Assembly (NCBI GenBank): GCA_963834935.1
Contig: CAWIDS010000001.1
Coordinates: forward strand, 236,499-300,498
Direction: 5' to 3'
Source of the DNA: Candidatus Nomurabacteria bacterium
GTDB lineage: Bacteria; Patescibacteriota; Minisyncoccia; Phycocordibacterales; CALRBL01
DNA: 64,000 bases
Under the pieces are notes generated by a model. That model was not told the origin of the DNA and did not search any database. It saw nothing but the letters and a program-made list of their open reading frames with translations. Below, one piece after another: positions 13,204 to 52,343 of this stretch. Position 1 is the stretch's first letter. Each line of letters starts with the position of its first letter. The translations under genes and the position numbers were made by a program.

Positions 13204-13242
13204 CTGTTTTTATAAAGATAATCTTAGGTTATGAATAATCGA

Positions 13243-14232: not shown

Positions 14233-14263
14233 ATTTAATGAAGATTTCTATTCCAAGTAAAAA

Positions 14264-14842: not shown

Positions 14843-14915
14843 AATTGTAATATTATCATTTTTAGATAAAAACCCCTTTCGGGGTGTTTTAAATTAAAGT
14901 CTCATAAACTTGACT

Positions 14916-15110
14916 CTACTTTTTATTTTCTGGCATTTTTTTGAGTATTTCTCTCATTTTGCCGATAAACTCTAACTCTGCCTTTAGAATTTTTTCTTTT
15001 TTCTCTAGCATGGCCAATTTAAACTCTTTTTTCATTGGTCCGTGCATATGGTGACAATGTCCATGTTCTTCGTGTCCTTCTCCACCTTCATAGTTTTCGT
15101 CGTGTATCAT
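14916..15110 (-). CDS. Small His-rich protein, possibly metal-binding
   Basis: 64 aa: EGGEGHEEHGHCHHMHGP followed by a Lys/Glu-rich helix. Confidence 0.35.
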   Translation of the reverse strand: MIHDENYEGGEGHEEHGHCHHMHGPMKKEFKLAMLEKKEKILKAELEFIGKMREILKKMPENKK

Positions 15111-15194
15111 AATTTTATTTTAAATATTAATTTATAACTCGACTTTTATGTTCGTAATTATTAATACGTTCACGAAGACAGAAACGGTGCTAAT

Positions 15195-16196: not shown

Positions 16197-16273
16197 AGTC
16201 TGTATCTAGTCATACGATAATACAAACAAAAAAGTTTCATTAACTTTTTTGTTTGTATTATCGAATTTCTTAA

Positions 16274-17050: not shown

Positions 17051-17065
17051 AATTTTTTATTTAAA

Positions 17066-17884
17066 TTACCCTAATCTACTCTCAGTCTTTCTTGCTCTCC
17101 GAATTTCTCGAAAATTTCCTCTATCTTGAAGTTTATTTCCTGTAAAGAAAATAAAAGCGTCTTCAAGATCTGCCTCTGGCTTACCAGTTTTTGATTTTAT
17201 TTCTTCTGGAGTTCCAATTACAGCAATTTTCCCTTCATTGATAATAGCAACTCGATCACTTACTTCGTCGGCTTCTTCCATATTATGTGTAGAAAAAAAG
17301 ATTGTAGTTCCCATAGTGTCTCGTAATTTAATAAGGTGATCCCAAACACTTCTCTGAGCCACAGGGTCTAAACCCGTAGTAGGTTCATCAAGAAAAAGAA
17401 CTTTTGGATGATGAAGCATTGCTTGTCCTATTTCCATTTTACGAATCATCCCACCAGAAAATGTTCGAACCAAAGCATGGGCGTGATCCTGTAGATTTAG
17501 AAACAAAAGAATTTCATTAATACGCTTTATCCTTTCAGCTTTTGGAACGATGTCATAAAGACGAGCCATCAGCATCAAGTTTTCGTATGCAGTCAAAGTT
17601 CCATCTACAGAAATCATTTGTGGTACATACCCAATAGTCTCACGAACTCTTGAGGAATTGTGAACAATATCATGTCCATCAATAACAGCTTTACCGCTTG
17701 TTGGTTTAAGTAAAGTTATTAGCATTTTAATTGTTGTACTTTTTCCCGCTCCGTTTGGACCGAGAAATCCAAAAATCTCTCCCTGACTCACATTAAATGA
17801 AATGTTATCTACCGCAGCAAAATCTTTAAATTTTTTTGTAAGATTTACTACTCCAATTAGTTTTTGATCCGGTTGTGATGACAT
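17066..17884 (-). CDS. ABC transporter ATP-binding protein
   Basis: Walker A GPNGAGKST, signature FSGGMIRKMEIGQAM, Walker B LFLDEPTTGLD. Confidence 0.9.
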   Translation of the reverse strand: MSSQPDQKLIGVVNLTKKFKDFAAVDNISFNVSQGEIFGFLGPNGAGKSTTIKMLITLLKPTSGKAVIDGHDIVHNSSRVRETIGYVPQMISVDGTLTAYENLMLMARLYDIVPKAERIKRINEILLFLNLQDHAHALVRTFSGGMIRKMEIGQAMLHHPKVLFLDEPTTGLDPVAQRSVWDHLIKLRDTMGTTIFFSTHNMEEADEVSDRVAIINEGKIAVIGTPEEIKSKTGKPEADLEDAFIFFTGNKLQDRGNFREIRRARKTESRLG

Positions 17885-18061
17885 AAAATTAATAATTTTT
17901 AGGGAACTATATACAATGTTACCCTAGATTATTTTAATGCTGGGGTGTTTTGGGTAATAAGTGCTATGTTGCTATCAATATTAACGAGATAAAGTTTAAT
18001 CTTAACCAGTTCGGAAAGTATAAGTATCAGTATTATTATATAAACTACGTGTAGCCATTTT

Positions 18062-34875: not shown

Positions 34876-35108
34876 TGTATAAAAAGCCTGCGCCTAGGCG
34901 CTTCGCTCTCGTCGTTCAATGGATAGGACATAACTTTGCGGAAGTTAAAATATAGGTTCGATTCCTATCGAGAGCACATCGTAGTGAGACCTATCGGGAG
35001 GCCTAAATGCTGACTAATTTTGAATGAGTCAAGGCTGACCCCGATAGGAATCGAAAAAATAAATATCGATCCATTAAGGCGTTTCAAAAAAGCTGTTTTG
35101 GTAGTAGT

Positions 35109-35927
35109 ATGGCCAGTATGGATGTAGAAAATTATTTAAGGAGCATACTCAAGAAATACTCGATATCAGCTGATCTCAATCGGCTCATTGCCATTGGAAA
35201 CGCCGAAAAATCTGTCAGAGTAGTTATTACCGAATGGGCTCATACATTTCTACACGAGATCAAGCGGTCAGGCTCGATTGAGAAGGGCACTGCTATCTCG
35301 ACTTCGGCAGATCTTGATCTGTTTATATCGCTAAAATCAGAAACACCAGGTTCCTTGCCAGAGCTATACGAGGGTCTTGCCAAGTGGCTTGAGTCAAAGA
35401 ACTATAAAATCCGTAGACAGAATAGCTCCATCAGGATCAATCATGCAGGTATCAATGTCGATCTCATACCCGCACGAAAGTTCGCTAGTCAAAGCGGCTC
35501 TTTGCCGGGATTGCTCGGTCAGAGCCAAGACCACTCCATACGCATAAGGAAAAGTAACTCTTGGGCAAAGACTAATATTGAGGCACAGATACGGAAGGTC
35601 AAGGACTCAAGGAGACACGACGACATAAAGCTGGCTAAGATATGGCGTGATATAAGCGGTATCGATTTTCCGTCAATTTACCTTGAGCTTTCAGTCATCA
35701 AGGCTCTTAACGGCGATGCTCTAGGGTTGTTACTGCCGCCACCCATATCAAAAAGGTTCGTGACTTTCATGAACTACCTTGTCAATGACTTTGAGACAGC
35801 GACAATCGAAGACCCTGGCAATAAGAGTAACAAGATATCAGATGACCTCTCGACAGTAGAAAAGAAGGTGATTATCAACGCCGCAAAAAATGTCCTAACT
35901 AAAAACTGGACTCAAGTACTATGGTAA
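35109..35927 (+). CDS. Short cGAS/DncV-like nucleotidyltransferase (CD-NTase/SMODS-like) of a CBASS-type system
   Basis: GSIEKGTAISTSADLDLFISL (GS...GT...DhD, Pol-beta NTase motif) and the third acidic residue in INVDLIP. Overlaps the next gene by 7 nt (ATGGTAA). Confidence 0.6.
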   Translation: MASMDVENYLRSILKKYSISADLNRLIAIGNAEKSVRVVITEWAHTFLHEIKRSGSIEKGTAISTSADLDLFISLKSETPGSLPELYEGLAKWLESKNYKIRRQNSSIRINHAGINVDLIPARKFASQSGSLPGLLGQSQDHSIRIRKSNSWAKTNIEAQIRKVKDSRRHDDIKLAKIWRDISGIDFPSIYLELSVIKALNGDALGLLLPPPISKRFVTFMNYLVNDFETATIEDPGNKSNKISDDLSTVEKKVIINAAKNVLTKNWTQVLW

Positions 35928-36616
35928 AAAAGATCAACATTCAAAAATTATTCGAGGCACTCGACGAAGAGATGCGACTAAAGCTCTCGAGCAAGATCGA
36001 TGAGATATATCATCCGACCGCAAAGGGTGATGAGTCTGAGCTTAACTGGATCGGCTTGCTCAGGTCATATCTTCCCGAAAGGTATACCGTCGACAGTGGC
36101 TTCGTCGTCGATCACGAAGGTAATCTGAGCGAACAGATTGATATCATTATTTACGATAGGCATTTCACTCCTTTTATCTTTAGGGGAGAAAATGTGGTCT
36201 ATATTCCAGCCGAAGGTGTATATGCGGTCTTTGAGGTTAAGCCCTATTTTGACAAAAAGAATCATGATTACGCCGTAAAGAAGCTCGGTAGCGTCAAGGC
36301 ACTCAAAAGGACCTCGGCACAGTTTACGCATATCGGTGGTAAAGATAAAAAGGAGCTTTTTGATGTGGTCGGAGGGGTCTTAACCAAAGCGAACAAGGCG
36401 AAAAAGCTTTTCAATGATTTGACCATTGGCTCTGAACTATCAGTGATACTGTCGCTCGATCATGGGGTGAAAATCATAAATAGCGAGTCTGTTGAAAAAC
36501 AAGGCAAAGAAGCCGTATTGGCCTTTTTCTTGCTAAAGCTTATTGAGAAATTACGCGCCTTAGGGTCGGTACCTGCGCTAGAGGCGGATAAATATTTGGA
36601 GTCTATCAAAAAATAA
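35921..36616 (+). CDS. nucC: NucC-like cyclic-oligonucleotide-activated restriction-endonuclease-fold nuclease (CBASS effector)
   Basis: HPTAKGDESELNWIGLLRSYLPERY, IDIIIYDR and IPAEGVYAVFEVK (PD-ExK) parallel recalled E. coli NucC segments (HPGAKGDASEGVWIEMLDTYLPKRY, IDVVVFDR, VPAESVYAVFEAK). Confidence 0.6.
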   Translation: MVKKINIQKLFEALDEEMRLKLSSKIDEIYHPTAKGDESELNWIGLLRSYLPERYTVDSGFVVDHEGNLSEQIDIIIYDRHFTPFIFRGENVVYIPAEGVYAVFEVKPYFDKKNHDYAVKKLGSVKALKRTSAQFTHIGGKDKKELFDVVGGVLTKANKAKKLFNDLTIGSELSVILSLDHGVKIINSESVEKQGKEAVLAFFLLKLIEKLRALGSVPALEADKYLESIKK

Positions 36617-36625
36617 CGATAATTT

Positions 36626-38425
36626 ATGAGTATTTTGCAGAACATAAACGGTGCAGAAATCTCCTCGTGGTCTGGAGTAAATGTGTCCTCTAATAATTAC
36701 CTCGACCAAGGTCATTGCCTGTTTCGTTTTGTTCATGACGGCTACTGTAATAGTGCCATGCTTAGCACTCCGATTTATCTCGATCTAGGAGGTGCCCTAG
36801 CCGCCTTTGGTCTGTTATTTGCCGTATACCAACTCCGTAATCCTAAATGGGATACTGCCCTCAAAATCCGTGATGCTTGGCAACGCCACCTATTCTGGAT
36901 ACTGGGAATCATAGGCTTAGCTCTTGTCCTCGCACGAGTGCTGATAACGCAGATACCTGTAGATTATCTCAGTTACCCATTCAATGTTCCTATACTATAT
37001 GAGCTTTTAGCATACGTCTTCTTCGTAGCATCGCCACTCTCTTTGATGTATTTCGGGCAACGATCGAAGCATCTCTTCAAAGAAAGAACAGCGAGAAAAT
37101 TCTACGAGGTACTCATAGCAGAAGTGTCTCGTTCTGACGAAAAATGGATTGATGCCGCCCTCGAAGTGCTCATGCGCAATTTCGACGATATCTGCAAATC
37201 GATTGCTGAAAATGAGCCGAGGACTGAGATAAGCGGATCAGCTCGAGCGATCATCGATGTTGTCTTGAGCGAAGAGTCGATAGTTAAAATTTTGACCACC
37301 AAACGGCTCGATGCGCTTCAGCGTATATTTTATACAATCAAGAAATATCACATTAATCGCAATCAATGCGACGTCGGTATACCAGCACTTGTCAGAAATT
37401 TGTTCCTCGACGAAACATCTTTCTTTTACAAGCATCTTAACCGAGACGGCTTGGCATTGTCATTGAATATCTACGAAAGCATTTTTGAGTCACCGATACT
37501 GCTCACCAATTTTAATCTATTCGGGTATCCGACCTTGGGATACTCGGCACGAAATAATAGTGGCATCGCTATGAAGGTATTTATTCAGGCCCTGTCAAAA
37601 TCTATTGCCACATATTTGAAAACAGGAAAAGGGTCGGTGCGCTATATAAATGATGGTCTCGAATACCTCAGTGACGCATTCGGGAATATATGCATGAAAA
37701 TCAGCACTGAGGAAGGTAGAGGTGTTGATACGAGATACAGTTTAGAGGATGAATGGTGGACGTTGCATGACATCGCACATTTCTTGGGTCATGACTACCC
37801 ATTCCTGGTCTACCAAGACACACTTAATCAAATTACTGTTGATACAGAAAAGACAGCGTCTGAAGCAGGATTTTATTCTGATCTAACAATCAACGCTGGT
37901 ATTGCCGCCGTCTTATATAAAGCATTTGAACAACTCGCATATCTTAGAAAGACGACCGACATATATCATACCGTTCTCCAGCTACTGAATGGTATGATGT
38001 ACCACGAAAATTATAAGGAAGGATACAGGAATCCGTTTGAAAAAAGACTGTGGGAACAGATTGCCAAAAACGTATCAAGCAAGCACTATCCAAATGTGCT
38101 CAGGATCTACCTTACATTTATGGGCTTTATGCTCACCTCTGACGATACCAATCAGAGACAAGGTTGGATTGGTGGACAGACGGAGAGAATGAGGAGATTA
38201 CTCTATGTTGATCTCAAGCCGCTTCTCGATAGGGGTGAAAAGATGGTCAATGATGAGCTAATGATCGATGTCCTGCTTCCAGAATGGATGAAGTACAAAG
38301 ATGGCAAATTCTCGTATACTAATGGCTTTGGCAGGGGTGATACGAAAGTGATTACCGAGCCACCTGCGGGATCAGCATCGGCTTTAGTAGGTGTTGATAT
38401 GGATAATCGCAGTTCATTGCTCTAG
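36626..38425 (+). CDS. Large membrane protein of unknown function, operonic with the CD-NTase and nucC genes
   Basis: 599 aa. Three or four N-terminal TM helices and a ~450-aa soluble domain with no recognisable motifs. Starts 10 nt after the nucC stop. Confidence 0.5.
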   Translation: MSILQNINGAEISSWSGVNVSSNNYLDQGHCLFRFVHDGYCNSAMLSTPIYLDLGGALAAFGLLFAVYQLRNPKWDTALKIRDAWQRHLFWILGIIGLALVLARVLITQIPVDYLSYPFNVPILYELLAYVFFVASPLSLMYFGQRSKHLFKERTARKFYEVLIAEVSRSDEKWIDAALEVLMRNFDDICKSIAENEPRTEISGSARAIIDVVLSEESIVKILTTKRLDALQRIFYTIKKYHINRNQCDVGIPALVRNLFLDETSFFYKHLNRDGLALSLNIYESIFESPILLTNFNLFGYPTLGYSARNNSGIAMKVFIQALSKSIATYLKTGKGSVRYINDGLEYLSDAFGNICMKISTEEGRGVDTRYSLEDEWWTLHDIAHFLGHDYPFLVYQDTLNQITVDTEKTASEAGFYSDLTINAGIAAVLYKAFEQLAYLRKTTDIYHTVLQLLNGMMYHENYKEGYRNPFEKRLWEQIAKNVSSKHYPNVLRIYLTFMGFMLTSDDTNQRQGWIGGQTERMRRLLYVDLKPLLDRGEKMVNDELMIDVLLPEWMKYKDGKFSYTNGFGRGDTKVITEPPAGSASALVGVDMDNRSSLL

Positions 38426-39756
38426 GTAGTTTGTATCTGCACGACCTTGTTATTCACCACCACCTTGCTCTTGAGGCACGACAGTAGCTCTCGCTTCTCC
38501 CAGACACCGCCCTCACGCAGGATATACTTGGCATAGTTTCGTATATCGATGTCAGTGGTCTTGATAGCAGTCGGTTTTTCCCCAAGAAGTGATGACTGGA
38601 ATTTCTTGTGTCGCTCGATCTCGCTCTTGACCCGCTCTTTCATGCCGATCTCATCGAGGTCGATCTTGTCCATGAGTGTCGCCAGTTGTTCGATGAGGTC
38701 TTCTTCATTGATCCAGCCAGAGGTGCACTTCGGATCATTATGTCTGGTACATCCGTAGTAGACATATCGGTGGACATTGCCGTTCTTTTGCTTCTTGTAT
38801 TTCTCGTCAGCGGTGATGCCTGATCCGCATAGTCCGCAGGACATGAGCTTGGTGAAGGCGAACTCCTTATGATCGCCCCGGTCAGCATAGTCGATCATAT
38901 TCTCCTGCACTTTGTCGAAGAGCTCTTTGGTGATGAGGGGCGTATGCTTGCCCTGATACCACTGTCCACCGCCTTTCGGATACTCGAATGCGCCATAGTA
39001 GAAAGTATTGCGGAGTGTAAGGTAGACATTGCTCAAGGAAAATATCTTGCCGTTTCTGGTTTTGAATTTTATATCGTTCTTGAGCCATGCGTGAATCTTT
39101 CTACCACTCCATTTCTCATATCCTGCTTTTTCGAATACCTTTTTAACAATTGGCGCTCTATGGGGATCAACCTCGACATGACACCGCTTGTCCACATTCT
39201 TGCTATTAAGATAGCCAGTCGGTGCCGTGCATGGCCATAGTCCCATCTCGCATCGAGCTCGGAGTCCGCGCTTGACGTTAACCACCTTGTTGTCATTCTC
39301 GAGCTTGGCCTGTGATCCTAGAATCATCAGCATGAACTTGTCATTCGGCGTGTTCATGAATTTCTGGCCATAGGTGCGTATCTCGATGAGCTTCTTTTGA
39401 TCCATAAGGTCGACGATCCTTCCAAGGTCGCCGGCGTTTCGGCTGATACGATCCGGTGCCCATGTGAGGATGCCATTAAATTTACCACTTTTTATTTCAT
39501 CGACTATTTCATTGAATACTTGTCGTTGTCCCGCCTCCTTGGCCGAGTGCGACTCCTTCTTTATCTCTACAATCTCAAGGCACTCTTTTTCGGCCATGGC
39601 GATCATCTCCTTGATCTGCGAGTCGATGGACAAGACTTGTTTGTCCTCGGCCTCAGTTGATTTTCTCGCGTAAAGGCAGTACTTCATCGGTATCGCCTTT
39701 ATCTCCGGCTTTACAAAGGCGCCGGTAAACCCTTTTGTTGCTTGTATTTGTTGCAT
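38422..39756 (-). CDS. Large serine recombinase/integrase
   Basis: N-terminal resolvase domain YARKSTEAEDKQVLSIDSQ with the catalytic Ser, a recombinase domain and a C-terminal zinc ribbon (CGLCG...C..C). Confidence 0.85.
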   Translation of the reverse strand: MQQIQATKGFTGAFVKPEIKAIPMKYCLYARKSTEAEDKQVLSIDSQIKEMIAMAEKECLEIVEIKKESHSAKEAGQRQVFNEIVDEIKSGKFNGILTWAPDRISRNAGDLGRIVDLMDQKKLIEIRTYGQKFMNTPNDKFMLMILGSQAKLENDNKVVNVKRGLRARCEMGLWPCTAPTGYLNSKNVDKRCHVEVDPHRAPIVKKVFEKAGYEKWSGRKIHAWLKNDIKFKTRNGKIFSLSNVYLTLRNTFYYGAFEYPKGGGQWYQGKHTPLITKELFDKVQENMIDYADRGDHKEFAFTKLMSCGLCGSGITADEKYKKQKNGNVHRYVYYGCTRHNDPKCTSGWINEEDLIEQLATLMDKIDLDEIGMKERVKSEIERHKKFQSSLLGEKPTAIKTTDIDIRNYAKYILREGGVWEKRELLSCLKSKVVVNNKVVQIQTT

Positions 39757-39759
39757 ATT

Positions 39760-39783
39760 GGTATACCTGTTAGCTGGTATACC
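39760..39783. repeat. Two palindromic GGTATACC octamers 8 bp apart, immediately upstream of the recombinase start; candidate att core or operator
   Basis: GGTATACC-TGTTAGCT-GGTATACC. Confidence 0.3.
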
Positions 39784-39891
39784 TCAAGGGATGACGCAAC
39801 CCCGCCGAGGAGTCTAGGAGGCCTGAAGTTGGTAAAGTGTCGGTAACTAAATACTCAAAAAAGCTTCTAAAATATAGGAAAAAATGCTAGA

Positions 39892-41481
39892 GTGTCACTA
39901 ATAATGACAGTCAATAATCGCAAACAACTACACGAGAGACTATGGGCGGCGGCAGAGCAGTTGCGCGCCAACAGCTCGCTCAAACTCAATGAAATATCAG
40001 AGCCAATTTTAGGTTTGATTTTTCTTAAATTTGCCGATGTAAAATTCCGTAGAGCCAAAGCTGAAATCGAGAAAGAACGCGAAAAACTGACTGGCAGGAA
40101 GCCACCGATTACTCCCGATAATTATAAACAGCGAGGTGTACCATTTATTCCAGATGAAGCTGGCTATGCGCATCTCATGGATCTGCCTGAAGGTGAAAAT
40201 ATCGGCAAAGCAATCAATGACGCCATGAAGTCTATTGAACAAGAAAATCGCGAGCTGGCGGGCATTCTTCCGCAAGACTTTACCACTCTTTCATCACGTC
40301 CGGCAGAAAATAGTAGGATACTTCTTACACTTCTCAAAAACTTCAATCAAATTCCCGACGATATCGAGGGTGACGCTTTCGGCGAGATTTATGAATATTT
40401 TCTAGGTGAGTTTGCTCGCGCTGAAGGCCAAAAGGGCGGAGAATTCTTTACTCCGCAATCCATAGTCAAGCTTCTAGTGGAAATCATAGAGCCGTATCAC
40501 GGCAAGATTTTTGATCCGGCTTGCGGTTCGGGCGGCATGTTTGTGCAGTCGGCAAACTTTGTGGCGCGTCATCAAAAGAACAAGCGTCCGATCATGGAAG
40601 AAGTTGGTATTTATGGCCAAGAAAAAGGCGCCAACAATATGCGCGTGGCCAAAATGAACCTCGCCATTCATGGAATCTCTGGCAAAATCGAGCTTGCCAA
40701 TTCATTTTATGAAGATCCGCACAAAAGTATCGGCCAATTCGACTTCGTGCTCGCCAATCCGCCATTCAATGTAAAAGGCAAAGATAAGAACGGGCAAATC
40801 GTCATTGATCCGGCACGTCTCCAAGGCGATGCCCGCTATAACTACGGCCTCCCGCTTACCGGAAAGGGCGAAATCTCCAACGCCAACTATCTCTGGATGC
40901 AAATGTTTGCAAGCGCCTTGAACGACAAAGGCCGTGCCGGTTTTGTTATGGCCAATTCCGCGAGCGACGCTGGCAACGCCGAAAAAGTAATTCGCAGAAA
41001 AATGATTGATGCCGGAATGGTGGATGTGATTGTTTCGGTGGGAACAAATATGTTTATGAACGCCACGCTTTCTTGCACACTTTGGTTTTTTGATAAGCGG
41101 AAAAAAGGCACGGATAGGCAAAACGAAGTTTTGTTTATTAACGCGCAAGATATTTTCACGCCGATTGATCGCGCCCATAGCGAATGGACACCAGAGCAAA
41201 TCCAAGAAATAGCCGACATCGTATGCCGTTATCGGGGAGAAAAGGGCGAAGACGCATACAATGACATAAAAGGCCGATGCAAAGTGGCAACGCTTGAGGA
41301 AGTCCGTGCCAATGACTACTCGCTCAATCCGGGGCGCTATGTGGAGATTGTAGAAAAAGAAATGAGCGACGTGGACTTTGACGCGCGAATGAAAGAACTG
41401 ATGGGCGAGTTTACGGATTTGACCAGCGAAGCGCACAAGCTGGAAAAGAAAATCCAAGAGGATTGGAAAAAGATTTTATGA
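39892..41481 (+). CDS. hsdM: Type I restriction-modification N6-adenine methyltransferase subunit HsdM
   Basis: Motif I DPACGSGGMF and motif IV LANPPFN. N-terminal HsdM_N region. GTG or ATG(39904) start. Confidence 0.9.
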   Translation: MSLIMTVNNRKQLHERLWAAAEQLRANSSLKLNEISEPILGLIFLKFADVKFRRAKAEIEKEREKLTGRKPPITPDNYKQRGVPFIPDEAGYAHLMDLPEGENIGKAINDAMKSIEQENRELAGILPQDFTTLSSRPAENSRILLTLLKNFNQIPDDIEGDAFGEIYEYFLGEFARAEGQKGGEFFTPQSIVKLLVEIIEPYHGKIFDPACGSGGMFVQSANFVARHQKNKRPIMEEVGIYGQEKGANNMRVAKMNLAIHGISGKIELANSFYEDPHKSIGQFDFVLANPPFNVKGKDKNGQIVIDPARLQGDARYNYGLPLTGKGEISNANYLWMQMFASALNDKGRAGFVMANSASDAGNAEKVIRRKMIDAGMVDVIVSVGTNMFMNATLSCTLWFFDKRKKGTDRQNEVLFINAQDIFTPIDRAHSEWTPEQIQEIADIVCRYRGEKGEDAYNDIKGRCKVATLEEVRANDYSLNPGRYVEIVEKEMSDVDFDARMKELMGEFTDLTSEAHKLEKKIQEDWKKIL

Positions 41482-42635
41482 GCACTTGGACTAAGCAAAA
41501 ATTATCGGATATTTGCGACGTTAGGGACGGAACGCATGATTCACCTAAGCCTGCTACAAGTGGTTTTCCTTTGGTGACTTCAAAACATATAATAAATAAC
41601 AAAATTGATTTTTCGAGTGCATACTTGATAACGAATGAGGATTTTGATGCTGTAAATAAAAGAAGCAAAGTAAGCAAGTTCGATATTCTGATTAGTATGA
41701 TTGGTACTGTTGGTGAAATTGCTCTTGTAAAAGAGGAGCCTAGATTTGCTATAAAAAATGTTGGTCTAATAAAAACAAATAATGAAACACTGGGTAAATA
41801 TTTATTTTATTATCTAATTTCACCAACCGGTAAAAATATACTCAGTTCATTTCTTACAGGTTCAACACAAAAATTTATTAGCCTTAGTAAACTTAGAGAT
41901 TTTCCAATAACACTACCACCGGAAGAAAATCAAAATAAGATCACTTCTGTCCTCTCCGCCTACGATGACTTGATAGAAAACAATGAAAAGCGCATCAAGA
42001 TACTGGAAGAAATGGCACAACTTCTTTATACCGAATGGTTTGTAAAGTTCAAATTTCCCGGCTATGAAAAAGTAAAGGTGGTCCATAGTGGCACTGAATA
42101 CGGCAAGATTCCGACGGGGTGGGAGGTGAGAAATGTTGAAAGCTTAATCAAACGGATTCCGGTTGGTAAAAAATATGAAAATAAAAGTGTCCTTGAGATA
42201 GGCAGAGTCCCCGTACTTGATCAAGGGAAATCAGGCTTTATTGGTTATCACAATGACGAGCCTGGTGTAAAAGCTTCAATTGAAAACCCAGTGATTGTTT
42301 TTGCAAATCATACCTGCTATCAAAATATCATCGTCTATCCATTTTCGGCGATACAAAATGTTCTACCGTTTGTTCCAAATGATGAACGAGATATTTTTTG
42401 GTTGCACTGGTCTACGAAAGACCTAATTAAATTTAACGACTACAAAGGTCACTGGCCGGAATATATGTCAAAGAAACTCATTGTGCCGTCTGTTGATTTA
42501 ACAAAAAAATTCGGCAGTATTGTCGGTAAATATGTTGCGATGAAATATAAAATGGAAACAGAAAATAAAAACTTATCCCAAATCCGCGATCTTTTAATTC
42601 CCCAGCTGGTGAATGGGAAAAGGGATTTAAAATAA
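41463..42635 (+). CDS. hsdS: Type I R-M specificity subunit HsdS
   Basis: 390 aa. Two AT-rich target-recognition domains separated by conserved coiled-coil repeats (ITSVLSAYDDLIENNEKRIKILEEMAQLLYTEWF). Confidence 0.85.
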   Translation: MEKDFMSTWTKQKLSDICDVRDGTHDSPKPATSGFPLVTSKHIINNKIDFSSAYLITNEDFDAVNKRSKVSKFDILISMIGTVGEIALVKEEPRFAIKNVGLIKTNNETLGKYLFYYLISPTGKNILSSFLTGSTQKFISLSKLRDFPITLPPEENQNKITSVLSAYDDLIENNEKRIKILEEMAQLLYTEWFVKFKFPGYEKVKVVHSGTEYGKIPTGWEVRNVESLIKRIPVGKKYENKSVLEIGRVPVLDQGKSGFIGYHNDEPGVKASIENPVIVFANHTCYQNIIVYPFSAIQNVLPFVPNDERDIFWLHWSTKDLIKFNDYKGHWPEYMSKKLIVPSVDLTKKFGSIVGKYVAMKYKMETENKNLSQIRDLLIPQLVNGKRDLK

Positions 42636-42639
42636 TTTT

Positions 42640-43470
42640 ATGATAGCTCCAAATAGATTTTCGAGAAAGGATAAAGAATATTGCGGAATTAGGACTCACA
42701 GTAGATATGTCGGAAATATTTATTTATTATTGAACTCTGAAAAGTTGACATTCAATTTGGAACTAGAAAAAGATAATCATCTTGGATTTAAGGATGAAAT
42801 AAATAAAAAAATAATCAAGAAATTAGGAATTGTTCAGTATACAGTAGAATCTATACAGAAAGAATACGAATATTCAAAAACAGATGAAGAATTTTTACCA
42901 TTAGCACTATCTTGGATATGGATAAAGGGTTATTATGCCATCTTCCATCTCTTGTCTCTTTTGGTTGCGATTGAAAAATCTGATGAAAAATATATCTTTG
43001 ACAAGAAATTTAATCTACACCAAAAAATAAATAATAATGCGAATGAATTTTTATCAAGAAAACCATTCAATCTAGATGAAATTAACGAAGTATTTTGTGG
43101 AACTGATTTAGAAAAGTTTGTCACAAAAGACTATGAGAATTTAAAGACATTGAGTGAGTTTGATCAAAATCTTTACAAATTATCAATAAAGAAAGTATTT
43201 AAAGATAATAGGAAAAAGAACGGCGTAAAAGAGGCAAGGCAGAAACAATACTCAATATTTAATGTTTGTTTAAATTATAGGGAAATGTTTAATTATTCTG
43301 GGTTTCATTATATTGAAACGGAAGCTGAACAAAATCAGGAAGAAATAAAAAAACTTTATTTTGCTTCGCACTATGTAATTTTAGCTCTTGTTAATGCTAT
43401 AGCCGAATTTTTATCCAAAAAGACAGATGGGGCATTACATGATAAATTAGTAGAAATAACCAATTTATGA
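42640..43470 (+). CDS. Hypothetical protein embedded between hsdS and hsdR (AT-rich)
   Basis: 276 aa with no motifs. Coupled to hsdR by a 4-nt ATGA overlap. Confidence 0.5.
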   Translation: MIAPNRFSRKDKEYCGIRTHSRYVGNIYLLLNSEKLTFNLELEKDNHLGFKDEINKKIIKKLGIVQYTVESIQKEYEYSKTDEEFLPLALSWIWIKGYYAIFHLLSLLVAIEKSDEKYIFDKKFNLHQKINNNANEFLSRKPFNLDEINEVFCGTDLEKFVTKDYENLKTLSEFDQNLYKLSIKKVFKDNRKKNGVKEARQKQYSIFNVCLNYREMFNYSGFHYIETEAEQNQEEIKKLYFASHYVILALVNAIAEFLSKKTDGALHDKLVEITNL

Positions 43471-46400
43471 ACCCGTTCTCCGAAGACAACCTAGTCGAGC
43501 AAACGGTCATCAAGCTCATAAAAGAAGCATGGGCTGATTCTGCTTGCCACATAAATACTTATACCGATGAAGAAGATGCCAAACTGGGGCGAGAACATCG
43601 TGGTGAAGTGGTGCTGAAGAAATACCTTTTGCCAGCTTTGGAAAAATTGAATCCTGACTTGCCAAAAGAATCATTGGATCAAGCCGTTGAGCAAATTACC
43701 CGCGATAGGTCGCAAATGTCCTTGGTGAACGCTAACAAGGAGATTTATCAGCTCTTGCGTGACGGCGCCAGCGTGCAAGTAATGAACAAAGACGGGGAAT
43801 ACGAAACAGAAACCGCCCGCTTCTTTGACTTTACAAATCCTTCAAATAATTCTTTTTTATGCGTATCACAACTTTGGGTAGTCGGCGAAATGCATACAAA
43901 ACGACCGGATGTAGTACTTTTTGTAAATGGAATTCCACTTGTCCTTCTTGAACTAAAAGCATCGCATAAAAGCTTGGTAGATGCTCATCGAGACAATTTA
44001 CGCGATTATAAAGATACCATACCAAAACTACTTTGGTATAACCTCGGCATCATCATCAGCAATGGCATTGAAAATAAATTCGGTTCAATAACCTCGCCAT
44101 ACGAATTTTTTAATGAATGGAAAAAGGTTGAAAGCGAAGATGATAAACCAAAGACCGATATCGCTACTATTATTCGAGGCGTCTGTGATAAGGGACGGAT
44201 GATGGATATTTTTGAAAACTTTATTCTCTATGACGAATCCGGTCCAGGCGAAATCAAGAAAATCGTTCCGCGCTATTTTCAATACTACGGAGTCAATCGA
44301 GCCTTTCAAAAAGTAATCAACCGCAAGACAAATGAAGGAAAGCTCGGCGTTTTTTGGCATACACAAGGCTCAGGCAAATCGTATTCAATGGTTTACCTAT
44401 CGCAAAAAGTATTACGCAAACTGCAAGGTAATTTTACTTTTGTCATAGTAACCGACCGAAGCGACCTAGATCGACAGGCGTATGATAACTTTGCCAATGT
44501 TGGTGCTGTGTATGAAGCAGAAGTTCGGGCTAATTCAATTGTTCATTTGAAAGAATTATTGCGAGCGGATCATCGCCAAATTTTTACCACCATTCAAAAA
44601 TTCCAGGATATTCCCGATGCTATTTCAGAGCGCGATGATATTATCGTCATGACCGACGAGGCGCATCGCACTCAATATGACCGGATGGCGCAAAATATGC
44701 GTCGAGCATTGCCAAAAGCGGCATTCATTGGCTTTACCGGAACCCCGCTTATGGCTAAAGGCGAGGAAAAGACACGCGAAACATTCGGTAATTATGTGTC
44801 CCAGTATAACTTCGGTGATTCGGTGCGAGATGGTGCGACCGTGCCTTTGTATTATGAAAATCGTGTGCCGAGATTGGAGAATGTAAATAAGCAGTTGGAA
44901 CAAGAAATCGGCAAAGTCATGGACTTTTATGAGTTGAATGACGAGGAAGAGGAAAAACTAGAATCTGAATTTTCTACTTTCTATAACTTGGTGACTCGCG
45001 AAGATCGCCTCAATGCCATTGCGCGGGATATTGTTGAGCATTTTGTCGGTCGTGGATATAACGGCAAGGCAATGGTGGTTTCGATTGATAAAAAGACGGC
45101 AGTGAGAATGTACACAAAAGTGCGTGCCGAATGGGAGCGATATTTGGGGAAATTGCGAATGGATTTATCACGCACAACCGATGAATATGAGAGGGAAAAG
45201 ATTGAAGAAAAACTCACACGACATGAATACGTAGAGATGGCAGTAATGGTTAGTCAAAGCCAAAATGAGATAGCGGACTTGGAACCATTTGAGATAAATA
45301 TGCGGCCAATTCGCGAACACATTATACACGGCAATTTGGAAAAAGAATTTAAGAAAGCAGAAAGTAATCTACGCATTGTATTTGTCTGTGCCATGTGGAT
45401 GACCGGCTTTGATGTGCCTAATCTGTCAACACTATATCTCGATAAGCCGCTTAAAAATCACACTCTGATGCAAGCGATCGCGCGCGTCAATCGTGTTTCG
45501 CCCGGCAAGAATAACGGATTAATCGTCGACTATATCGGCGTATTTAGGAATATCGAAAAGGCTCTTGCAATTTACGCTTCTACCGAAGGTGGAGATGATG
45601 AAATTATCCGAAGCAAAGACGAGCTCGTGGATGAGTTGAGAGAAGCGCTTAAACTTGGTAAAAAATTCCTGCAAGAAGAGCATGTCGATCTGGCAAAAAT
45701 CGTTTCCGCTCTGGCCGAAGAAAAACTGCTTTTGCTTGAATACGCGGCCAATGCGATTGTGTCGGATGTGGCAAAGAAAAAGAAGTTTCTGAACCTTGCC
45801 TCGGATATACAGAATACATATTACGCAGTCTTGCCCGACCCATCGGCGGATGATTTTTATACTGAAGTGACGGCCATCCGTGTCATTGCTTCGCGCGTGC
45901 GCGATGTCGGTTCCGCAAGCATAGATGTGTCGCAAGTTAAGAAAGATATGGAAGACTTGCTAGATCGCTCAATACAAGCCGGCGAGTATGTCATTCCGCA
46001 ACACAAGCGACTGCGAGATTTGAGTATGCTTGATACGGATGCTTTACATGATTTTTTTGTAAAGTTGGACAACAAGAATTTGCAAGCAGAAAGTTTGAGC
46101 GCAGAGTTGAAAGGAAAAATCGAGGAAATGGTTAGGCGTAATCGAAAGCGAGCAAGGTTTATGGAACGGTTGGATTCCTTGCTCAAAGAATACAATTCCG
46201 GCGCGCATGATATAGATAAACTTTTGAATGATCTTGTGGCATTGGCAAAAGATCTTAATGAAGAGGAACAGCGCGCGGTAAAAGAGGGTTTGACCGAAGA
46301 CGAATTGGCAATTTTTGATCTGTTGCGCAAAGAAAACTTGAATCCAGATGAAACAGCCAAAGTGCGTTTGGTCGCAAAAGAACTATTGGAAAAGTTAAAA

Positions 46401-46592
46401 GATAAACTTGTGCTCGGCTGGCGAGATTTTGAGCCGTTACGTTCGGGTGTGAAAATTACGATATCAGATGTCTTGTTTCCAAAGCTGCCTGAATCGGTTT
46501 ATACAGAGAATGATTGTGAGAAAAAAGGATTGGAAGTTTATAATTTTGTGTATGAGAATTATCCGAATGCTAAATCGTTTTCGCATAATTAA
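43467..46592 (+). CDS. hsdR: Type I restriction enzyme R subunit HsdR (SF2 helicase plus nuclease)
   Basis: 1041 aa. N-terminal nuclease region (VLFVNGIPLVLLELK), Walker A TQGSGKS, DEAH box MTDEAHRTQY, motif VI QAIARVNR. Confidence 0.9.
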   Translation: MNPFSEDNLVEQTVIKLIKEAWADSACHINTYTDEEDAKLGREHRGEVVLKKYLLPALEKLNPDLPKESLDQAVEQITRDRSQMSLVNANKEIYQLLRDGASVQVMNKDGEYETETARFFDFTNPSNNSFLCVSQLWVVGEMHTKRPDVVLFVNGIPLVLLELKASHKSLVDAHRDNLRDYKDTIPKLLWYNLGIIISNGIENKFGSITSPYEFFNEWKKVESEDDKPKTDIATIIRGVCDKGRMMDIFENFILYDESGPGEIKKIVPRYFQYYGVNRAFQKVINRKTNEGKLGVFWHTQGSGKSYSMVYLSQKVLRKLQGNFTFVIVTDRSDLDRQAYDNFANVGAVYEAEVRANSIVHLKELLRADHRQIFTTIQKFQDIPDAISERDDIIVMTDEAHRTQYDRMAQNMRRALPKAAFIGFTGTPLMAKGEEKTRETFGNYVSQYNFGDSVRDGATVPLYYENRVPRLENVNKQLEQEIGKVMDFYELNDEEEEKLESEFSTFYNLVTREDRLNAIARDIVEHFVGRGYNGKAMVVSIDKKTAVRMYTKVRAEWERYLGKLRMDLSRTTDEYEREKIEEKLTRHEYVEMAVMVSQSQNEIADLEPFEINMRPIREHIIHGNLEKEFKKAESNLRIVFVCAMWMTGFDVPNLSTLYLDKPLKNHTLMQAIARVNRVSPGKNNGLIVDYIGVFRNIEKALAIYASTEGGDDEIIRSKDELVDELREALKLGKKFLQEEHVDLAKIVSALAEEKLLLLEYAANAIVSDVAKKKKFLNLASDIQNTYYAVLPDPSADDFYTEVTAIRVIASRVRDVGSASIDVSQVKKDMEDLLDRSIQAGEYVIPQHKRLRDLSMLDTDALHDFFVKLDNKNLQAESLSAELKGKIEEMVRRNRKRARFMERLDSLLKEYNSGAHDIDKLLNDLVALAKDLNEEEQRAVKEGLTEDELAIFDLLRKENLNPDETAKVRLVAKELLEKLKDKLVLGWRDFEPLRSGVKITISDVLFPKLPESVYTENDCEKKGLEVYNFVYENYPNAKSFSHN

Positions 46593-46688
46593 ACATTATG
46601 GACTCCTCCGAAATCCTAGAACTTATCAAAGATAGCGTAAGGTTGTGAGACTTTCTATACCGGTATCTTTATGCGTTAAAATAGTGAT

Positions 46689-47435
46689 ATGAATACATTA
46701 AATCCAGACGAACGGCCCTTTATCTCAGGATTTGTCGATAATAAAGGTAAAACATGGCTTATTGACGGTGAAGCGTCAATAAGAGAAATTGAGGAGAATA
46801 CAAATGTTCAATATCAGAAAATTGATAACGAGAAAGATACTGCGGAACTGAAGGAAATTGTTAAACAGCTAGAAAGTCTTGAGAAAGAATTTGATAATAA
46901 AGAAACACTTATAAGGATCGCGAACGTGCTTGCGGCATTTGTCTTAAGGTATGTTCGTCACAATACGGAAGACATTATAGCAATGGGAAATATTCAAAAA
47001 TCCTCTACATATGTAAGCTTGGGGGAGTTATTTGTTGAAATCGCAAGTATATACATTCTGTATGTAGACAAATTTTCTCACAATTTCTTTAGTAAAGAGA
47101 ATAATAACTTTTTTTACGATCGATTTCTAGATGATTTCATCGCTTTAGCTATGCTAACAAACTACGGAATAAACGCACACGCTATGCAAGGTATATTTGT
47201 TGAAGAGTTAAATAGTCGCATTAAAGAATATGCTAAGTTCGATATTATTGGTTCTGATGTAAATCAAGAAGAGTCCCAAATATATCAATTAGGTATCAAT
47301 GTCACTAAAATACTAAAAAACCATAAACAAAAACACCTCCTGACAGGTGCTACGATCGATATCCTGATTCAGATTTATGTAATTAAAGAATTTACAGCCT
47401 TAGACCAAATATTCAAACGAATATTTACCCATTAA
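46689..47435 (+). CDS. Hypothetical protein (AT-rich insert)
   Basis: 248 aa. Flanked by two copies of a ~36-bp sequence encoding MDS(S/D)EILEL(I/V)KD. Confidence 0.45.
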   Translation: MNTLNPDERPFISGFVDNKGKTWLIDGEASIREIEENTNVQYQKIDNEKDTAELKEIVKQLESLEKEFDNKETLIRIANVLAAFVLRYVRHNTEDIIAMGNIQKSSTYVSLGELFVEIASIYILYVDKFSHNFFSKENNNFFYDRFLDDFIALAMLTNYGINAHAMQGIFVEELNSRIKEYAKFDIIGSDVNQEESQIYQLGINVTKILKNHKQKHLLTGATIDILIQIYVIKEFTALDQIFKRIFTH

Positions 47436-47439
47436 TAAT

Positions 47440-47583
47440 ATGGACTCCGACGAAATCCTTGAACTTGTCAAAGACGGTGTAATCGAACCAGACCAAGTCG
47501 AGGATTTTGAAGCGCTAGATGAAGAAATCCAGCAATTAGTTGCGGATGGTGATCTTGATATGGATGATGTGGTAAATCTCTAA
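47440..47583 (+). CDS. Small acidic protein (47 aa) whose 5' end is duplicated at 46598-46648
   Basis: MDSDEILELVKDGVIEPDQVEDFEALDEEIQQLVADGDLDMDDVVNL. A truncated 16-codon copy lies upstream of the inserted gene. Confidence 0.3.
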   Translation: MDSDEILELVKDGVIEPDQVEDFEALDEEIQQLVADGDLDMDDVVNL

Positions 47584-51272: not shown

Positions 51273-52343
51273 ATGTCAATAATTATTTCAACCAACGGCA
51301 AAAAAGCCGTAAAGGTGGACAAGTCCGCCTTCGACAAAGAACACAAGCTACAGGAATATATCTACGAGAATCCCGAGAGTATACCGCTCTATGAGATCAA
51401 GGAAGATATCCGTCTCCTCATTCTTGCCCGAGAATTTCCGACATCAAGCGGTCCCATAGACGCTGTCGGCATCGACAAATATGGCGAACTCTATATAGTC
51501 GAGACAAAGCTTTTCAAGAATCCAGACAAACGCACGGTCATAGCACAAGCTCTCGACTACGGAGCCGCTCTTTGGAAGCATTCGAGTGACTTTGACGACT
51601 TTATCAGTACTCTTGATCAACATACTCAGAAGATGTTTGGCATGAGGATGACCGATAAGATAAAGGAATTTTTTAGCATGACCGACGAAGAGGTTTTACA
51701 GGTGATGGATCGCGCAAGAGCCAATCTAAACAATGGTTCTTTTCATTTCGTCATTCTCATGGATGAGCTTGGCGACAGACTGAAAGATCTAATTCTCTAC
51801 GTCAATCAAAACAGTCAATTTGACGTCTATGCAGTCGAGCTTGAATATTATAAGCACGAAAATCAGGAGATTATCATCCCGCGCATATTCGGTGCGGAAG
51901 TGAAGAAAGACGTGGGTACTGCCAAAAACACTGGTCCGCGACAATACTGGACTGAGGATATGCTTATTGAAGATGCTAAAGACAAATATTCTTCAGAAGA
52001 ATTCAAGGCCTTTCAGGAAATATATGAATTTTCAAAGAAAACTGCTGATAAGGTACGTTTTGGCACCGGCTCATACGGAACATTCAGTCCGGTTTTTGAA
52101 AAAATATGCCAGCGATCAATGTACACGCTCGGTACTGACGGCAGATTAAGTTTTAATTTCGATTGGATCGCAGACAAGAAATTATGCAAGGACTATGCCC
52201 AGTCTCTTGAAAAGGCAGGCTTTACTATTGATCAAAGCATTGCACAGGGAGGTTTTACCAAGAGACCGAGTGTTCTCGTGGACGAGTGGGTGCCGAAGGC
52301 AAGAACATTCGTTGAGATAATCAGAGAGCTCGTTAATAAATAA
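51273..52343 (+). CDS. PD-(D/E)xK nuclease-superfamily protein
   Basis: N-terminal IDAVGIDKYGELYIVETK has the D...E.K catalytic arrangement. C-terminal domain unknown. Confidence 0.5.
   Translation: MSIIISTNGKKAVKVDKSAFDKEHKLQEYIYENPESIPLYEIKEDIRLLILAREFPTSSGPIDAVGIDKYGELYIVETKLFKNPDKRTVIAQALDYGAALWKHSSDFDDFISTLDQHTQKMFGMRMTDKIKEFFSMTDEEVLQVMDRARANLNNGSFHFVILMDELGDRLKDLILYVNQNSQFDVYAVELEYYKHENQEIIIPRIFGAEVKKDVGTAKNTGPRQYWTEDMLIEDAKDKYSSEEFKAFQEIYEFSKKTADKVRFGTGSYGTFSPVFEKICQRSMYTLGTDGRLSFNFDWIADKKLCKDYAQSLEKAGFTIDQSIAQGGFTKRPSVLVDEWVPKARTFVEIIRELVNK

What the first reader, a model, noticed from the sequence alone, without database searches (positions are those of the whole stretch)
36626..38425. 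Unknown 599-aa membrane protein coupled to the CD-NTase and nucC genes
- It has three or four N-terminal TM helices and a long soluble domain with no motif recognisable by eye.
- It starts 10 nt after the nucC stop.
- If it belongs to the system it would be an undescribed CBASS component or membrane effector.
Basis: inference. Interest (0 to 1): 0.6.

Follow-up and report, generated by a model that had tools for sequence, protein, structure and literature searches.

The report
Orphan membrane protein of defence islets
The 599-aa gene is real, but it belongs to an uncharacterised membrane-protein family of ultra-small (CPR/Patescibacteria) bacteria that sits mostly beside restriction-modification systems and serine recombinases, so its position after the CBASS genes reflects a shared mobile defence islet, not a new CBASS part.

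Summary
The ORF (36626-38425, +) is confirmed. It has three N-terminal TM helices (N-out/C-in) and a roughly 450-aa cytoplasmic all-alpha domain. It follows a genuine CD-NTase and NucC pair.

It matches nothing in Pfam, NCBIfam, PHROGs, PADLOC or PDB sequences. Confident AlphaFold models (pLDDT 84-86) have no significant Foldseek match.

It belongs to a length-uniform family of about 300 clusters at 50% identity, with no domain fusions. Named members are almost all CPR/Patescibacteria. None was found in phage, plasmid or viral-contig collections.

Across 53 dereplicated loci, a CD-NTase lies nearby in only 2 and NucC only in the window. The recurrent neighbours are:
- large serine recombinases, in 18 of 53 groups; one clade lies tail-to-tail with a 4-nt stop overlap, as in the window;
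- restriction-modification operons of types I, II and III, often ending 2-27 nt upstream.

Homologues 85-87% identical sit behind different R-M systems. Some have their own Xre-type regulator. Genes six or more positions away are housekeeping.

Verdict: this is not a CBASS component. It is an autonomous, unknown-function cargo gene of recombinase-borne defence islets, and plausibly a single-gene membrane-anchored defence or exclusion protein. That function is inferred, not shown.

The parts
34905..34977 (+). tRNA-Arg(GCG). It marks the left edge of the islet: host-like composition lies to its left, foreign-like to its right.
   Evidence: ARAGORN. GC3 is 0.58-0.69 for the genes to the left, against 0.45-0.50 for CD-NTase, NucC and X599.
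35109..35927 (+). CD-NTase (CBASS cyclase), 272 aa.
   Evidence: PADLOC PDLC00803 at 4.9e-77; weak Pfam SMODS hit. GS...DxD motif read from the translation.
35921..36616 (+). NucC-type endonuclease effector, 231 aa. It overlaps the cyclase gene by 7 nt.
   Evidence: PADLOC PDLC00745 at 2e-74 and PDLC01051 at 1.7e-50; Pfam DUF6602 at 1.3e-32.
36626..38425 (+). The gene in question ('X599'), 599 aa. It belongs to an uncharacterised, mainly CPR family.
   Evidence: No significant family or structure match.
36626..36766 (+). X599 residues 1-47: variable, predicted-disordered N-terminal tail, inferred to be extracellular.
   Evidence: pLDDT below 50. This is the most variable region of the alignment. 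Topology from charge counts.
36770..37048 (+). X599 residues 49-141: three TM helices. TM1 is highly conserved (LDLGGALAAFGL.F.VYQLR.PKW; G55, A57, Q69 and W75 are invariant).
   Evidence: Hydropathy, AlphaFold secondary structure, invariant columns.
37061..38422 (+). X599 residues 146-599: cytoplasmic all-alpha domain ending in a small beta-hairpin. Conserved motifs include FLGHDY.F and RLLY.DLKP.
   Evidence: Models with pLDDT 83.6 / pTM 0.80 and 85.9 / 0.86. Foldseek returns only generic ARM/HEAT-like solenoids, TM about 0.2-0.3 and no E<=1e-3.
38422..39756 (-). Large serine recombinase, 444 aa. It is convergent with X599 and the two stop codons overlap by 4 nt (CTAG).
   Evidence: Pfam Resolvase, Recombinase and Zn_ribbon_recom. 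The same tail-to-tail arrangement occurs in L026/L005, L008, L063/L009 and L013, with decayed remnants in L003 and L029.
39892..46592 (+). Type I R-M operon, divergent from the recombinase: hsdM 39892-41481, hsdS 41463-42635, unknown low-GC orf276 42640-43470, hsdR 43467-46592.
   Evidence: Pfam and PADLOC. An R-M or methyltransferase operon lies beyond the recombinase in L063, L026 and L008 as well.

Best explanation
X599 is not part of the CBASS pathway. It belongs to a conserved family of unknown function found mainly in CPR/Patescibacteria. Members have an N-out/C-in three-TM anchor and a roughly 450-aa cytoplasmic all-alpha domain of novel fold. The family behaves as a self-contained cargo gene of small mobile defence islets moved by large serine recombinases.

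In the window, the islet starts right after tRNA-Arg. It reads CD-NTase - NucC - X599 -> <- recombinase, with a type I R-M system next door.

Shown:
- the gene and its topology;
- the absence of known domains or folds;
- the uniform single-domain architecture;
- the lack of CBASS linkage across the family;
- the strong linkage to recombinases and R-M systems;
- the swapping of neighbours around closely related copies.

Inferred: the protein acts on its own as a membrane-anchored defence or exclusion factor. The cytoplasmic solenoid would serve as a binding or sensing surface. The conserved small-residue-rich TM1 would be an oligomerising, membrane-acting part (abortive-infection-like, or a block to DNA entry). 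Expression would come by read-through from whatever operon lies upstream, or from its own Xre-type regulator.
For: Not CBASS:
- A CD-NTase is near X599 in 2 of 53 dereplicated groups, and NucC only in the window.
- There are no hits to PADLOC or Pfam CBASS effector or sensor models.
- The CBASS pair already has its effector, NucC.

Autonomous family:
- About 300 clusters at 50% identity, nearly all 540-620 aa and matched end to end, with no fusions.
- No other gene co-occurs widely. After the recombinase (17 groups), the next clusters reach at most 5 groups.
- An Xre HTH gene lies directly upstream in L064 and L067.

Islet and mobile-element context:
- Of 130 proteins within +/-2 genes, Pfam hits were Resolvase/Recombinase 9, ResIII 6, HNH 4, DNA methyltransferases about 9, GmrSD_N 2, Fic 2 and MrcB_N 1.
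- PADLOC gave REase_III 4, MTase_I/II/III, REase_II 2 and SoFic 2.
- Of 130 proteins six or more genes away, most are housekeeping (MreB, enolase, S2, pyruvate kinase), with Resolvase 2.

Individual contexts:
- type III R-M -> X;
- type II Dcm+NmeDI -> X;
- type I R-M + HARE-HTH -> X;
- MmeI-like MTase + Fic + HsdS -> X;
- EcoRI-type MTase + GmrSD/HNH REase -> X;
- AAA-HNH -> X;
- recombinase + Prim-Pol element;
- tyrosine integrase.

Neighbour swapping: X599 is 85-87% identical in L018, L031, L036 and L035, yet the upstream operons differ.

Selection independent of the recombinase: X599 is intact next to decayed recombinase remnants in L003 and L029.

Foreign composition: GC3 is 0.45-0.50 for CD-NTase, NucC and X599, against 0.58-0.69 for the host flank.

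Not phage- or plasmid-borne: no hits in IMG/VR, INPHARED or PLSDB.
Against: - There is no functional evidence of any kind. Defence is inferred only from neighbourhood, and CPR genomes are gene-dense and strand-biased, so short co-directional gaps are weak evidence of coupling.
- The family is unusually well conserved along its whole length, including the TM region. That is less typical of fast-evolving immune sensors and would also fit an enzyme or a structural or housekeeping role.
- One locus (L088) has no defence or mobility gene nearby. It shares position near holB with L026 at similar divergence, which hints at vertical, resident behaviour in some lineages.
- The far-gene control set comes from the same loci, and only the 25 commonest families were visible.
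- The islet boundaries (att sites) were not identified.
Confidence: 0.55

Rival explanations
1. X599 is a second, membrane-acting CBASS effector or accessory protein activated by the CD-NTase product.
For: It lies 9 nt downstream of nucC on the same strand, with composition similar to the CBASS genes. A second lineage (L003) has a CD-NTase of the same PADLOC family 1.4 kb upstream of its X599.
Against: 51 of 53 groups have no CD-NTase in the held flanks. There is no nucleotide-sensor or known effector domain. NucC already completes the system. In L003 the intervening genes are on the other strand.
Confidence: 0.04
2. X599 is mainly a landing site. Its 3' end, or the spot just after it, is the attachment site for one clade of serine-recombinase elements carrying R-M cargo, much as SCC elements insert at the end of orfX/rlmH. 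The gene's own function would be unrelated to defence.
For: - One recombinase clade sits exactly at the X599 stop codon, with a 4-nt overlap, in five divergent lineages plus two remnants.
- The L008 and L026 recombinases are 84% identical while their X599 genes are 52% identical. The similarity break falls at the stop codons.
- R-M operons always follow the recombinase.
- X599 lies near holB in two lineages.
Against: - X599 is patchy and rare, not a core gene (16 loci from a motif-pattern scan of one genome per 185,579 species).
- It is also flanked by at least six other, unrelated recombinase lineages in other orientations, and by a tyrosine integrase.
- Variable R-M operons also sit upstream of it.
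- The same recombinase clade overlaps the stop of a methyltransferase gene instead in L029.
- No displaced X599 end or significant att-like repeats were found.
Confidence: 0.15
3. X599 is an accessory of restriction-modification systems in general. It might be a membrane tether placing restriction at the site of DNA entry, or a back-up suicide module that fires when restriction is blocked (PrrC-like logic).
For: It is the last co-directional gene, 2-27 nt after R-M operons of types I, II and III, in many independent lineages. R-M families dominate its neighbours.
Against: - The partner R-M types share no common subunit that one conserved protein could recognise.
- Several loci have X599 with only a recombinase, an HTH or no R-M at all.
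- Closely related X599 copies sit behind unrelated R-M systems.
Confidence: 0.15
4. X599 is an ordinary CPR envelope or physiology protein (for example in cell-cell contact or uptake) that happens to border variable regions.
For: Strong whole-length conservation, including the TM helices. It is mainly CPR. L088 has a housekeeping context.
Against: Its distribution is sparse. It lies within foreign-composition DNA in the window. It is consistently close to mobility and R-M genes, while more distant genes are housekeeping.
Confidence: 0.1

Closest known systems
CBASS transmembrane effectors (Cap14/Cap15-type, SLATT-domain and other 2-4 TM effectors)
   Same: A membrane protein encoded directly after CBASS genes on the same strand. 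Membrane disruption is the commonest CBASS killing mode (general knowledge).
   Different: No match to any PADLOC or Pfam effector or sensor model. It is far larger, with a 450-aa cytoplasmic solenoid. The family is almost never next to a CD-NTase. The local system already has NucC.
SCC elements and the orfX(rlmH)/CcrAB arrangement in staphylococci
   Same: Large serine recombinases and variable cargo, often R-M, pile up immediately 3' of one conserved gene whose reading frame stays intact.
   Different: orfX is a universal housekeeping gene, whereas X599 is patchy and itself sits in foreign DNA. The recombinase here abuts the gene's stop codon. Att sites were not found. This comparison rests on general knowledge of SCCmec, not on a test.
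Accessory suicide or back-up genes embedded in R-M loci (e.g. PrrC in type Ic hsd loci)
   Same: An extra gene of unrelated function, co-transcribed with R-M genes.
   Different: PrrC is a soluble ABC-ATPase/anticodon nuclease tied to one R-M family. X599 is a membrane protein with no nuclease or ATPase motif, and it follows R-M systems of every type.
Patescibacteria-restricted defence genes of unknown mechanism (LdgA, DdgA/Dallas; Rodriguez-Rodriguez et al. 2025, PMC12366544)
   Same: They are restricted to Patescibacteria and have no sequence or structural homology to known proteins. They show that such orphan CPR genes can be true antiphage defences, even in E. coli.
   Different: This is a lead only.

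Membership tests
CBASS (as effector or Cap accessory) | Conserved genomic co-occurrence with a CD-NTase across homologues. | tested here: not met
   A CD-NTase lies within the held flanks in 2 of 53 dereplicated groups (window, L003). NucC occurs only in the window.
CBASS (as effector or Cap accessory) | A recognisable nucleotide-sensing or effector domain (SAVED, STING, Cap4/NucC-type, patatin, SLATT/TM effector models). | tested here: not met
   No PADLOC or Pfam families for X599. No Pfam families for 46 distant members. No structural match.
CBASS (as effector or Cap accessory) | Activation by the cyclase's cyclic oligonucleotide. | not testable with these tools
   Needs binding and activity assays.
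CBASS type I (the neighbouring two-gene system itself) | A CD-NTase plus a single effector are sufficient. | tested here: met
   PDLC00803 cyclase at 4.9e-77 plus NucC PDLC00745 at 2e-74, with overlapping genes. Sufficiency follows from the published classification (general knowledge).
orfX-like attachment-site gene for serine-recombinase elements | A recombinase-bearing element inserted at a fixed position at the gene's 3' end in independent lineages. | tested here: inconclusive
   One recombinase clade abuts the stop codon in five lineages plus two remnants. The 84% versus 52% identity contrast in L008/L026 fits re-insertion. However, the same clade abuts a methyltransferase gene in L029.
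orfX-like attachment-site gene for serine-recombinase elements | The target is a conserved resident (core) gene; att half-sites are recognisable at both element ends. | tested here: not met
   Patchy distribution. X599 lies within foreign-composition DNA. No displaced gene end. Repeat scores are within the shuffled range.
R-M-embedded back-up toxin (PrrC-like) | An ATPase/nuclease domain and linkage to one R-M family. | tested here: not met
   No such domains. It is linked to types I, II and III alike.
Known anti-phage defence families (PADLOC v2, including candidate PDC families) | HMM match. | tested here: not met
   No PADLOC families at E<=0.01.
Phage or plasmid gene | Homologues on viral contigs, phage genomes or plasmids. 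| tested here: not met
   None in IMG/VR, INPHARED or PLSDB.
LdgA / DdgA (Patescibacteria defence genes) | Sequence similarity to the published proteins. | not testable with these tools
   The sequences are not held in the library.

The most novel reading that the evidence does not exclude
The X599 family is a previously unrecognised, single-gene, membrane-anchored immunity or exclusion protein of CPR/Patescibacteria with a new fold. It would be carried as the constant payload of minimal serine-recombinase cassettes (X599 -> <- recombinase). These cassettes would recruit or land beside interchangeable R-M and CBASS modules, amounting to a CPR-specific way of building and moving defence islets.
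Probability: 0.35. Interest if true: 0.65.

Novelty: new variant of a known kind. Interest (0 to 1): 0.45.

Why it matters
CPR/Patescibacteria make up a large share of bacterial diversity, have tiny genomes and are thought to carry few defence systems.

Here is a conserved orphan family with a confident but unmatched predicted fold. It reliably marks small recombinase-borne R-M/CBASS islets. That makes it a concrete candidate for a lineage-specific immune or exclusion function, and a practical beacon for finding defence islets in these genomes.

For CBASS biology the result is negative but useful. Adjacency in a gene-dense genome should not be read as system membership, and the window's CBASS is an ordinary cyclase+NucC pair.

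Tried and rejected
1. Family searches. Pfam, NCBIfam, PHROGs and PADLOC on X599, and Pfam on 46 distant members, gave nothing significant.

2. Solved structures. Sequence profiles (A1, A2) against PDB sequences returned only noise: sarcospan, designed repeats, RNase kappa TM.

3. Fold searches.
- The full-length model against PDB and BFVD, and the C-terminal half against PDB, gave only generic solenoids with TM 0.1-0.36 and no E<=1e-3.
- No AlphaFold DB library was available.

4. A profile search with the 46-member alignment in the search for homologous proteins was unproductive, with 2 hits.

5. I tested whether the 541-aa gene tail-to-tail with the second recombinase in L007/L029 is a hidden X599 paralogue. 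It is not; it is an Eco57I-like methyltransferase.

6. Attachment-site tests.
- Six-frame HMM searches for a displaced X599 3' end at the far side of recombinase elements found none.
- A search for att-like direct or inverted repeats between the two candidate islet borders (34978-35108 and 39757-39891) gave a best score of 14/20, within the shuffled distribution.
- Longer repeats across 34.8-48.5 kb were also uninformative for borders.

7. The promoter/terminator scan around the gene was at background level.

8. My first ORF caller missed genes whose longest ORF overlapped a neighbour (noticed at L028). I rewrote it before the neighbourhood statistics.

9. The LdgA and DdgA sequences could not be obtained.

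10. The source organism of the window could not be named from cluster records.
Full report
**Observation**

The ORF at 36626-38425 (+) is real: ATG start, 599 codons.

The two genes before it are a CD-NTase and a NucC nuclease.
- CD-NTase: 35109-35927, PADLOC cyclase PDLC00803 at 4.9e-77.
- NucC: 35921-36616, PADLOC PDLC00745 at 2e-74 and Pfam DUF6602 at 1.3e-32.
- X599 starts 9 nt after the nucC stop.

Hydropathy gives three TM segments, at residues 49-70, 84-115 and 121-141. Lys+Arg counts are 1 in the N-terminal tail, 4 in loop 1-2, 0 in loop 2-3 and 8 after TM3. These place the N-terminus outside and the large C-terminal domain in the cytoplasm.

AlphaFold with a 28-sequence alignment gives a confident model (pLDDT 83.6, pTM 0.80). 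It shows a disordered tail (1-47), three TM helices plus a short amphipathic helix, an all-alpha domain (156-535) and a small beta-hairpin (555-575).

**No known relatives**

X599 has no significant hit in Pfam, PADLOC, NCBIfam or PHROGs. Forty-six distant family members also have none in Pfam.

Sequence profiles of the family find nothing meaningful among PDB sequences.

Foldseek was run with the full model against PDB and BFVD, and with a second model of residues 301-599 (pLDDT 85.9, pTM 0.86) against PDB. It returns only generic ARM/HEAT-like or designed helical repeats, with TM-scores of 0.1-0.36 and no E<=1e-3. The domain is a helical solenoid-like fold with no solved homologue.

**The family**

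A word-indexed search found 135 homologues at 43-68% identity, all 'hypothetical'.

An exhaustive profile search found 300 clusters (50% identity level) at E<=1e-3. Of these, 106 were at E<=1e-30. Nearly all are 540-620 aa and matched end to end. The architecture is therefore uniform, with no domain fusions to borrow function from.

Conservation is high along the whole length (mean column identity 54% among 28 sequences). This includes TM1 (LDLGGALAAFGL.F.VYQLR.PKW) and cytoplasmic motifs such as FLGHDY.F and RLLY.DLKP. Only the extracellular N-terminal tail is variable.

Named sources are almost all CPR/Patescibacteria: Parcubacteria, Paceibacterota, Kaiserbacteria, Saccharibacteria, Campbellbacteria, Magasanikiibacteriota and Peregrinibacteria. 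There are two Eremiobacterota MAGs and one short 'Pedobacter' contig.

No homologue was found in IMG/VR viral contigs, INPHARED phages or PLSDB plasmids.

**Neighbourhoods**

I collected 92 loci from genome and metagenome scans and exact-protein look-ups. I dereplicated them at 90% X599 identity into 53 groups, then called and clustered all flanking ORFs.

*CBASS.* A CD-NTase is present in only two groups, the window and L003. In L003 it lies 1.4 kb upstream, with opposite-strand genes in between. NucC occurs only in the window.

*Recombinases.* The only widely recurrent neighbour is a large serine recombinase. It occurs in 17 of 51 groups, plus L091.

*Within two genes of X599.* Among 130 proteins, the commonest Pfam families were:
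- Resolvase 9, Recombinase 9, Zn_ribbon_recom 7;
- ResIII 6, HNH 4;
- DNA methyltransferases about 9 in total;
- GmrSD_N 2, Fic 2, MrcB_N 1.

PADLOC gave type III REase (4), type I/II/III MTases, type II REase (2) and SoFic (2).

*Control.* An equal-sized sample of proteins six or more genes away was dominated by housekeeping families (MreB, enolase, ribosomal S2, pyruvate kinase, NrdD). It had Resolvase 2 and SWI2_SNF2 1. The variable patch around X599 is therefore small and embedded in ordinary genome.

*Individual contexts.*

| Context | Gap to X599 | Locus |
|---|---|---|
| Type III R-M upstream | 5 nt | L018 |
| Related type III R-M arrangements | | L035, L036, L046 |
| Dcm + NmeDI upstream | 24 nt | L028 |
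| Type I R-M + HARE-HTH upstream | 6 nt | L031 |
| MmeI-like MTase + Fic + HsdS upstream | 27 nt | L090 |
| EcoRI-type MTase + GmrSD/HNH REase upstream | 2-24 nt | L061, L065 |
| AAA-HNH nuclease upstream | 8 nt | L042 |
| CYTH upstream, PIF1 downstream | | L034 |
| Recombinase + Prim-Pol element | | L022 |
| Tyrosine integrase directly upstream | | L089 |
| No defence or mobility gene | | L088 |

X599 proteins that are 85-87% identical (L018, L031, L036, L035) sit behind different R-M operons. Neighbours are therefore exchanged around a constant X599.

In L064 and L067 an Xre-type HTH gene lies 7-26 nt upstream of X599 and divergent from a recombinase. There X599 looks like a self-contained regulated unit.

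**The recombinase junction**

In the window the recombinase (38422-39756, -) is convergent with X599, and the two stop codons overlap by 4 nt.
- The same 4-nt overlap occurs in L026/L005 and L008.
- L063/L009 (13-nt gap) and L013 (about 20-nt overlap) have the recombinase adjacent and convergent as well.
- Decayed recombinase remnants sit in the same place in L003 and L029.

These recombinases form one clade at 52-61% identity. Recombinases near X599 in other positions belong to at least six other lineages at 21-41% identity.

The histories of X599 and the recombinase are decoupled. The L008 and L026 recombinases are 84% identical while their X599 proteins are 52% identical. The change in similarity falls at the stop codons.

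Beyond the recombinase there is always an R-M or methyltransferase operon: type I in the window and L063, a type III-like system plus Dcm plus NOV_C in L026, and a double Dam-type MTase in L008.

In L029 an intact member of the same clade overlaps the stop of an Eco57I-like methyltransferase gene by 4 nt instead. The tail-to-tail overlap is therefore a habit of this recombinase clade and is not unique to X599.

I could not locate att sites. No displaced X599 end was found, and repeat scores between the candidate borders were within the shuffled range.

**The window's islet**

A tRNA-Arg (34905-34977) lies immediately before the CD-NTase.

| Genes | GC3 |
|---|---|
| Flanking host genes | 0.58-0.69 |
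| CD-NTase, NucC, X599 | 0.45-0.50 |
| Recombinase | 0.61 |
| Type I R-M genes | 0.24-0.49 |

The simplest layout is a foreign block that begins at the tRNA. It contains CD-NTase - NucC - X599 -> <- recombinase, followed by the type I R-M.

**Interpretation**

The CBASS reading fails the family-wide co-occurrence test and the domain tests. The local CBASS is also complete without X599.

The data do show a conserved, autonomous, mainly CPR membrane protein that lives in recombinase-borne R-M/defence islets. It stays intact when the adjacent recombinase decays, which argues that it benefits the cell rather than the element's mobility.

I therefore commit to an independent defence or exclusion function. 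The cytoplasmic solenoid would act as sensor or binding surface, and the conserved TM region as the oligomerising, membrane-acting part. This step is inference from context and anatomy only.

Live alternatives are:
- X599 mainly serves as a landing site for one recombinase clade (orfX/SCC-like);
- it is a general R-M accessory;
- it is a resident CPR envelope protein bordering a hotspot. L026 and L088 both carry it just downstream of holB at comparable divergence.

**Literature**

Genomic islands with R-M systems are documented in Patescibacteria (PMC12455944).

A functional metagenomics study found Patescibacteria-restricted defence proteins (LdgA, DdgA/Dallas) with no recognisable homology (PMC12366544). 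Whether X599 is one of them remains an open and easily settled question.

**Verdict**

- The CBASS-component interpretation is not supported, but the defence-island association is.
- The protein is an orphan family of unknown function with a new fold.
- Interest is moderate. It would rise if a phage or DNA-entry phenotype, or a role in a CPR-specific cassette system, were demonstrated.

Noticed in passing
window 46592-46640 and 47434-47482 (flanking 46689-47435): A 49-nt direct repeat (82% identity) brackets a low-GC 248-aa ORF with no family or PDB match. Each copy begins at a stop codon and reads ATGGACTCC... It looks like a duplicated 5' end of a small ORF made by insertion of the 248-aa gene.
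   Followed up: partly
window 42640-43470 (+): A very low-GC (0.28; GC3 0.24) 276-aa ORF is wedged between hsdS and hsdR of the type I R-M operon. It has no Pfam, PADLOC or PDB hit. It is a candidate R-M-embedded accessory gene.
   Followed up: partly
window 51273-52343 (+): A 356-aa protein matches the PADLOC candidate defence family PDC-S11 (1.5e-18) and PDC-S18. The defence-rich region may therefore extend beyond the type I R-M.
   Followed up: no
window ~12000-18000, e.g. 15195-16196 (-): A low-GC block (0.34) follows tRNA-Ser (11609-11697). One ORF resembles fungal-type glutamic peptidases (scytalidopepsin B, 8e-13), which is unusual in bacteria.
   Followed up: partly
L029 5075-6379 (-) and 3453-5078 (+); L029 10789-10947: An intact recombinase of the same clade overlaps, by 4 nt, the stop of an Eco57I-like methyltransferase. 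This gene follows HATPase_c_3 and HNH genes. Meanwhile a decayed recombinase remnant follows X599. The tail-to-tail stop overlap is thus a trait of this recombinase clade.
   Followed up: partly
L008 9659-10984 vs L026 9857-11185: The recombinases are 84% identical while the adjoining X599 genes are 52% identical, with the break at the overlapping stop codons. This indicates recombinase exchange or re-insertion at a fixed junction.
   Followed up: partly
L003 5023-7065: A second CD-NTase of the same PADLOC family (1e-73) lies near an X599 homologue. It is paired not with NucC but with an opposite-strand 178-aa TM protein resembling a CRISPR type III-associated TM effector (C3a59, 1.5e-11). It is preceded by a mad3/AriA-like ATPase fragment.
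   Followed up: no
L064 1469-1681; L067 7667-7903; also L059, L061, L051, L077: A 65-78-aa Xre-type HTH protein recurs in these islets. It lies directly upstream of X599 in L064 and L067, and at the head of the type II R-M operon in L061 and L059, where it is controller-protein-like.
   Followed up: partly
L026 6024-7163 and L015/L088 5493-6569: X599 lies 1-3 genes downstream of holB (DNA pol III delta') in two lineages, at similar divergence (holB 46%, X599 50%). This is either vertical inheritance or a shared insertion hotspot.
   Followed up: partly
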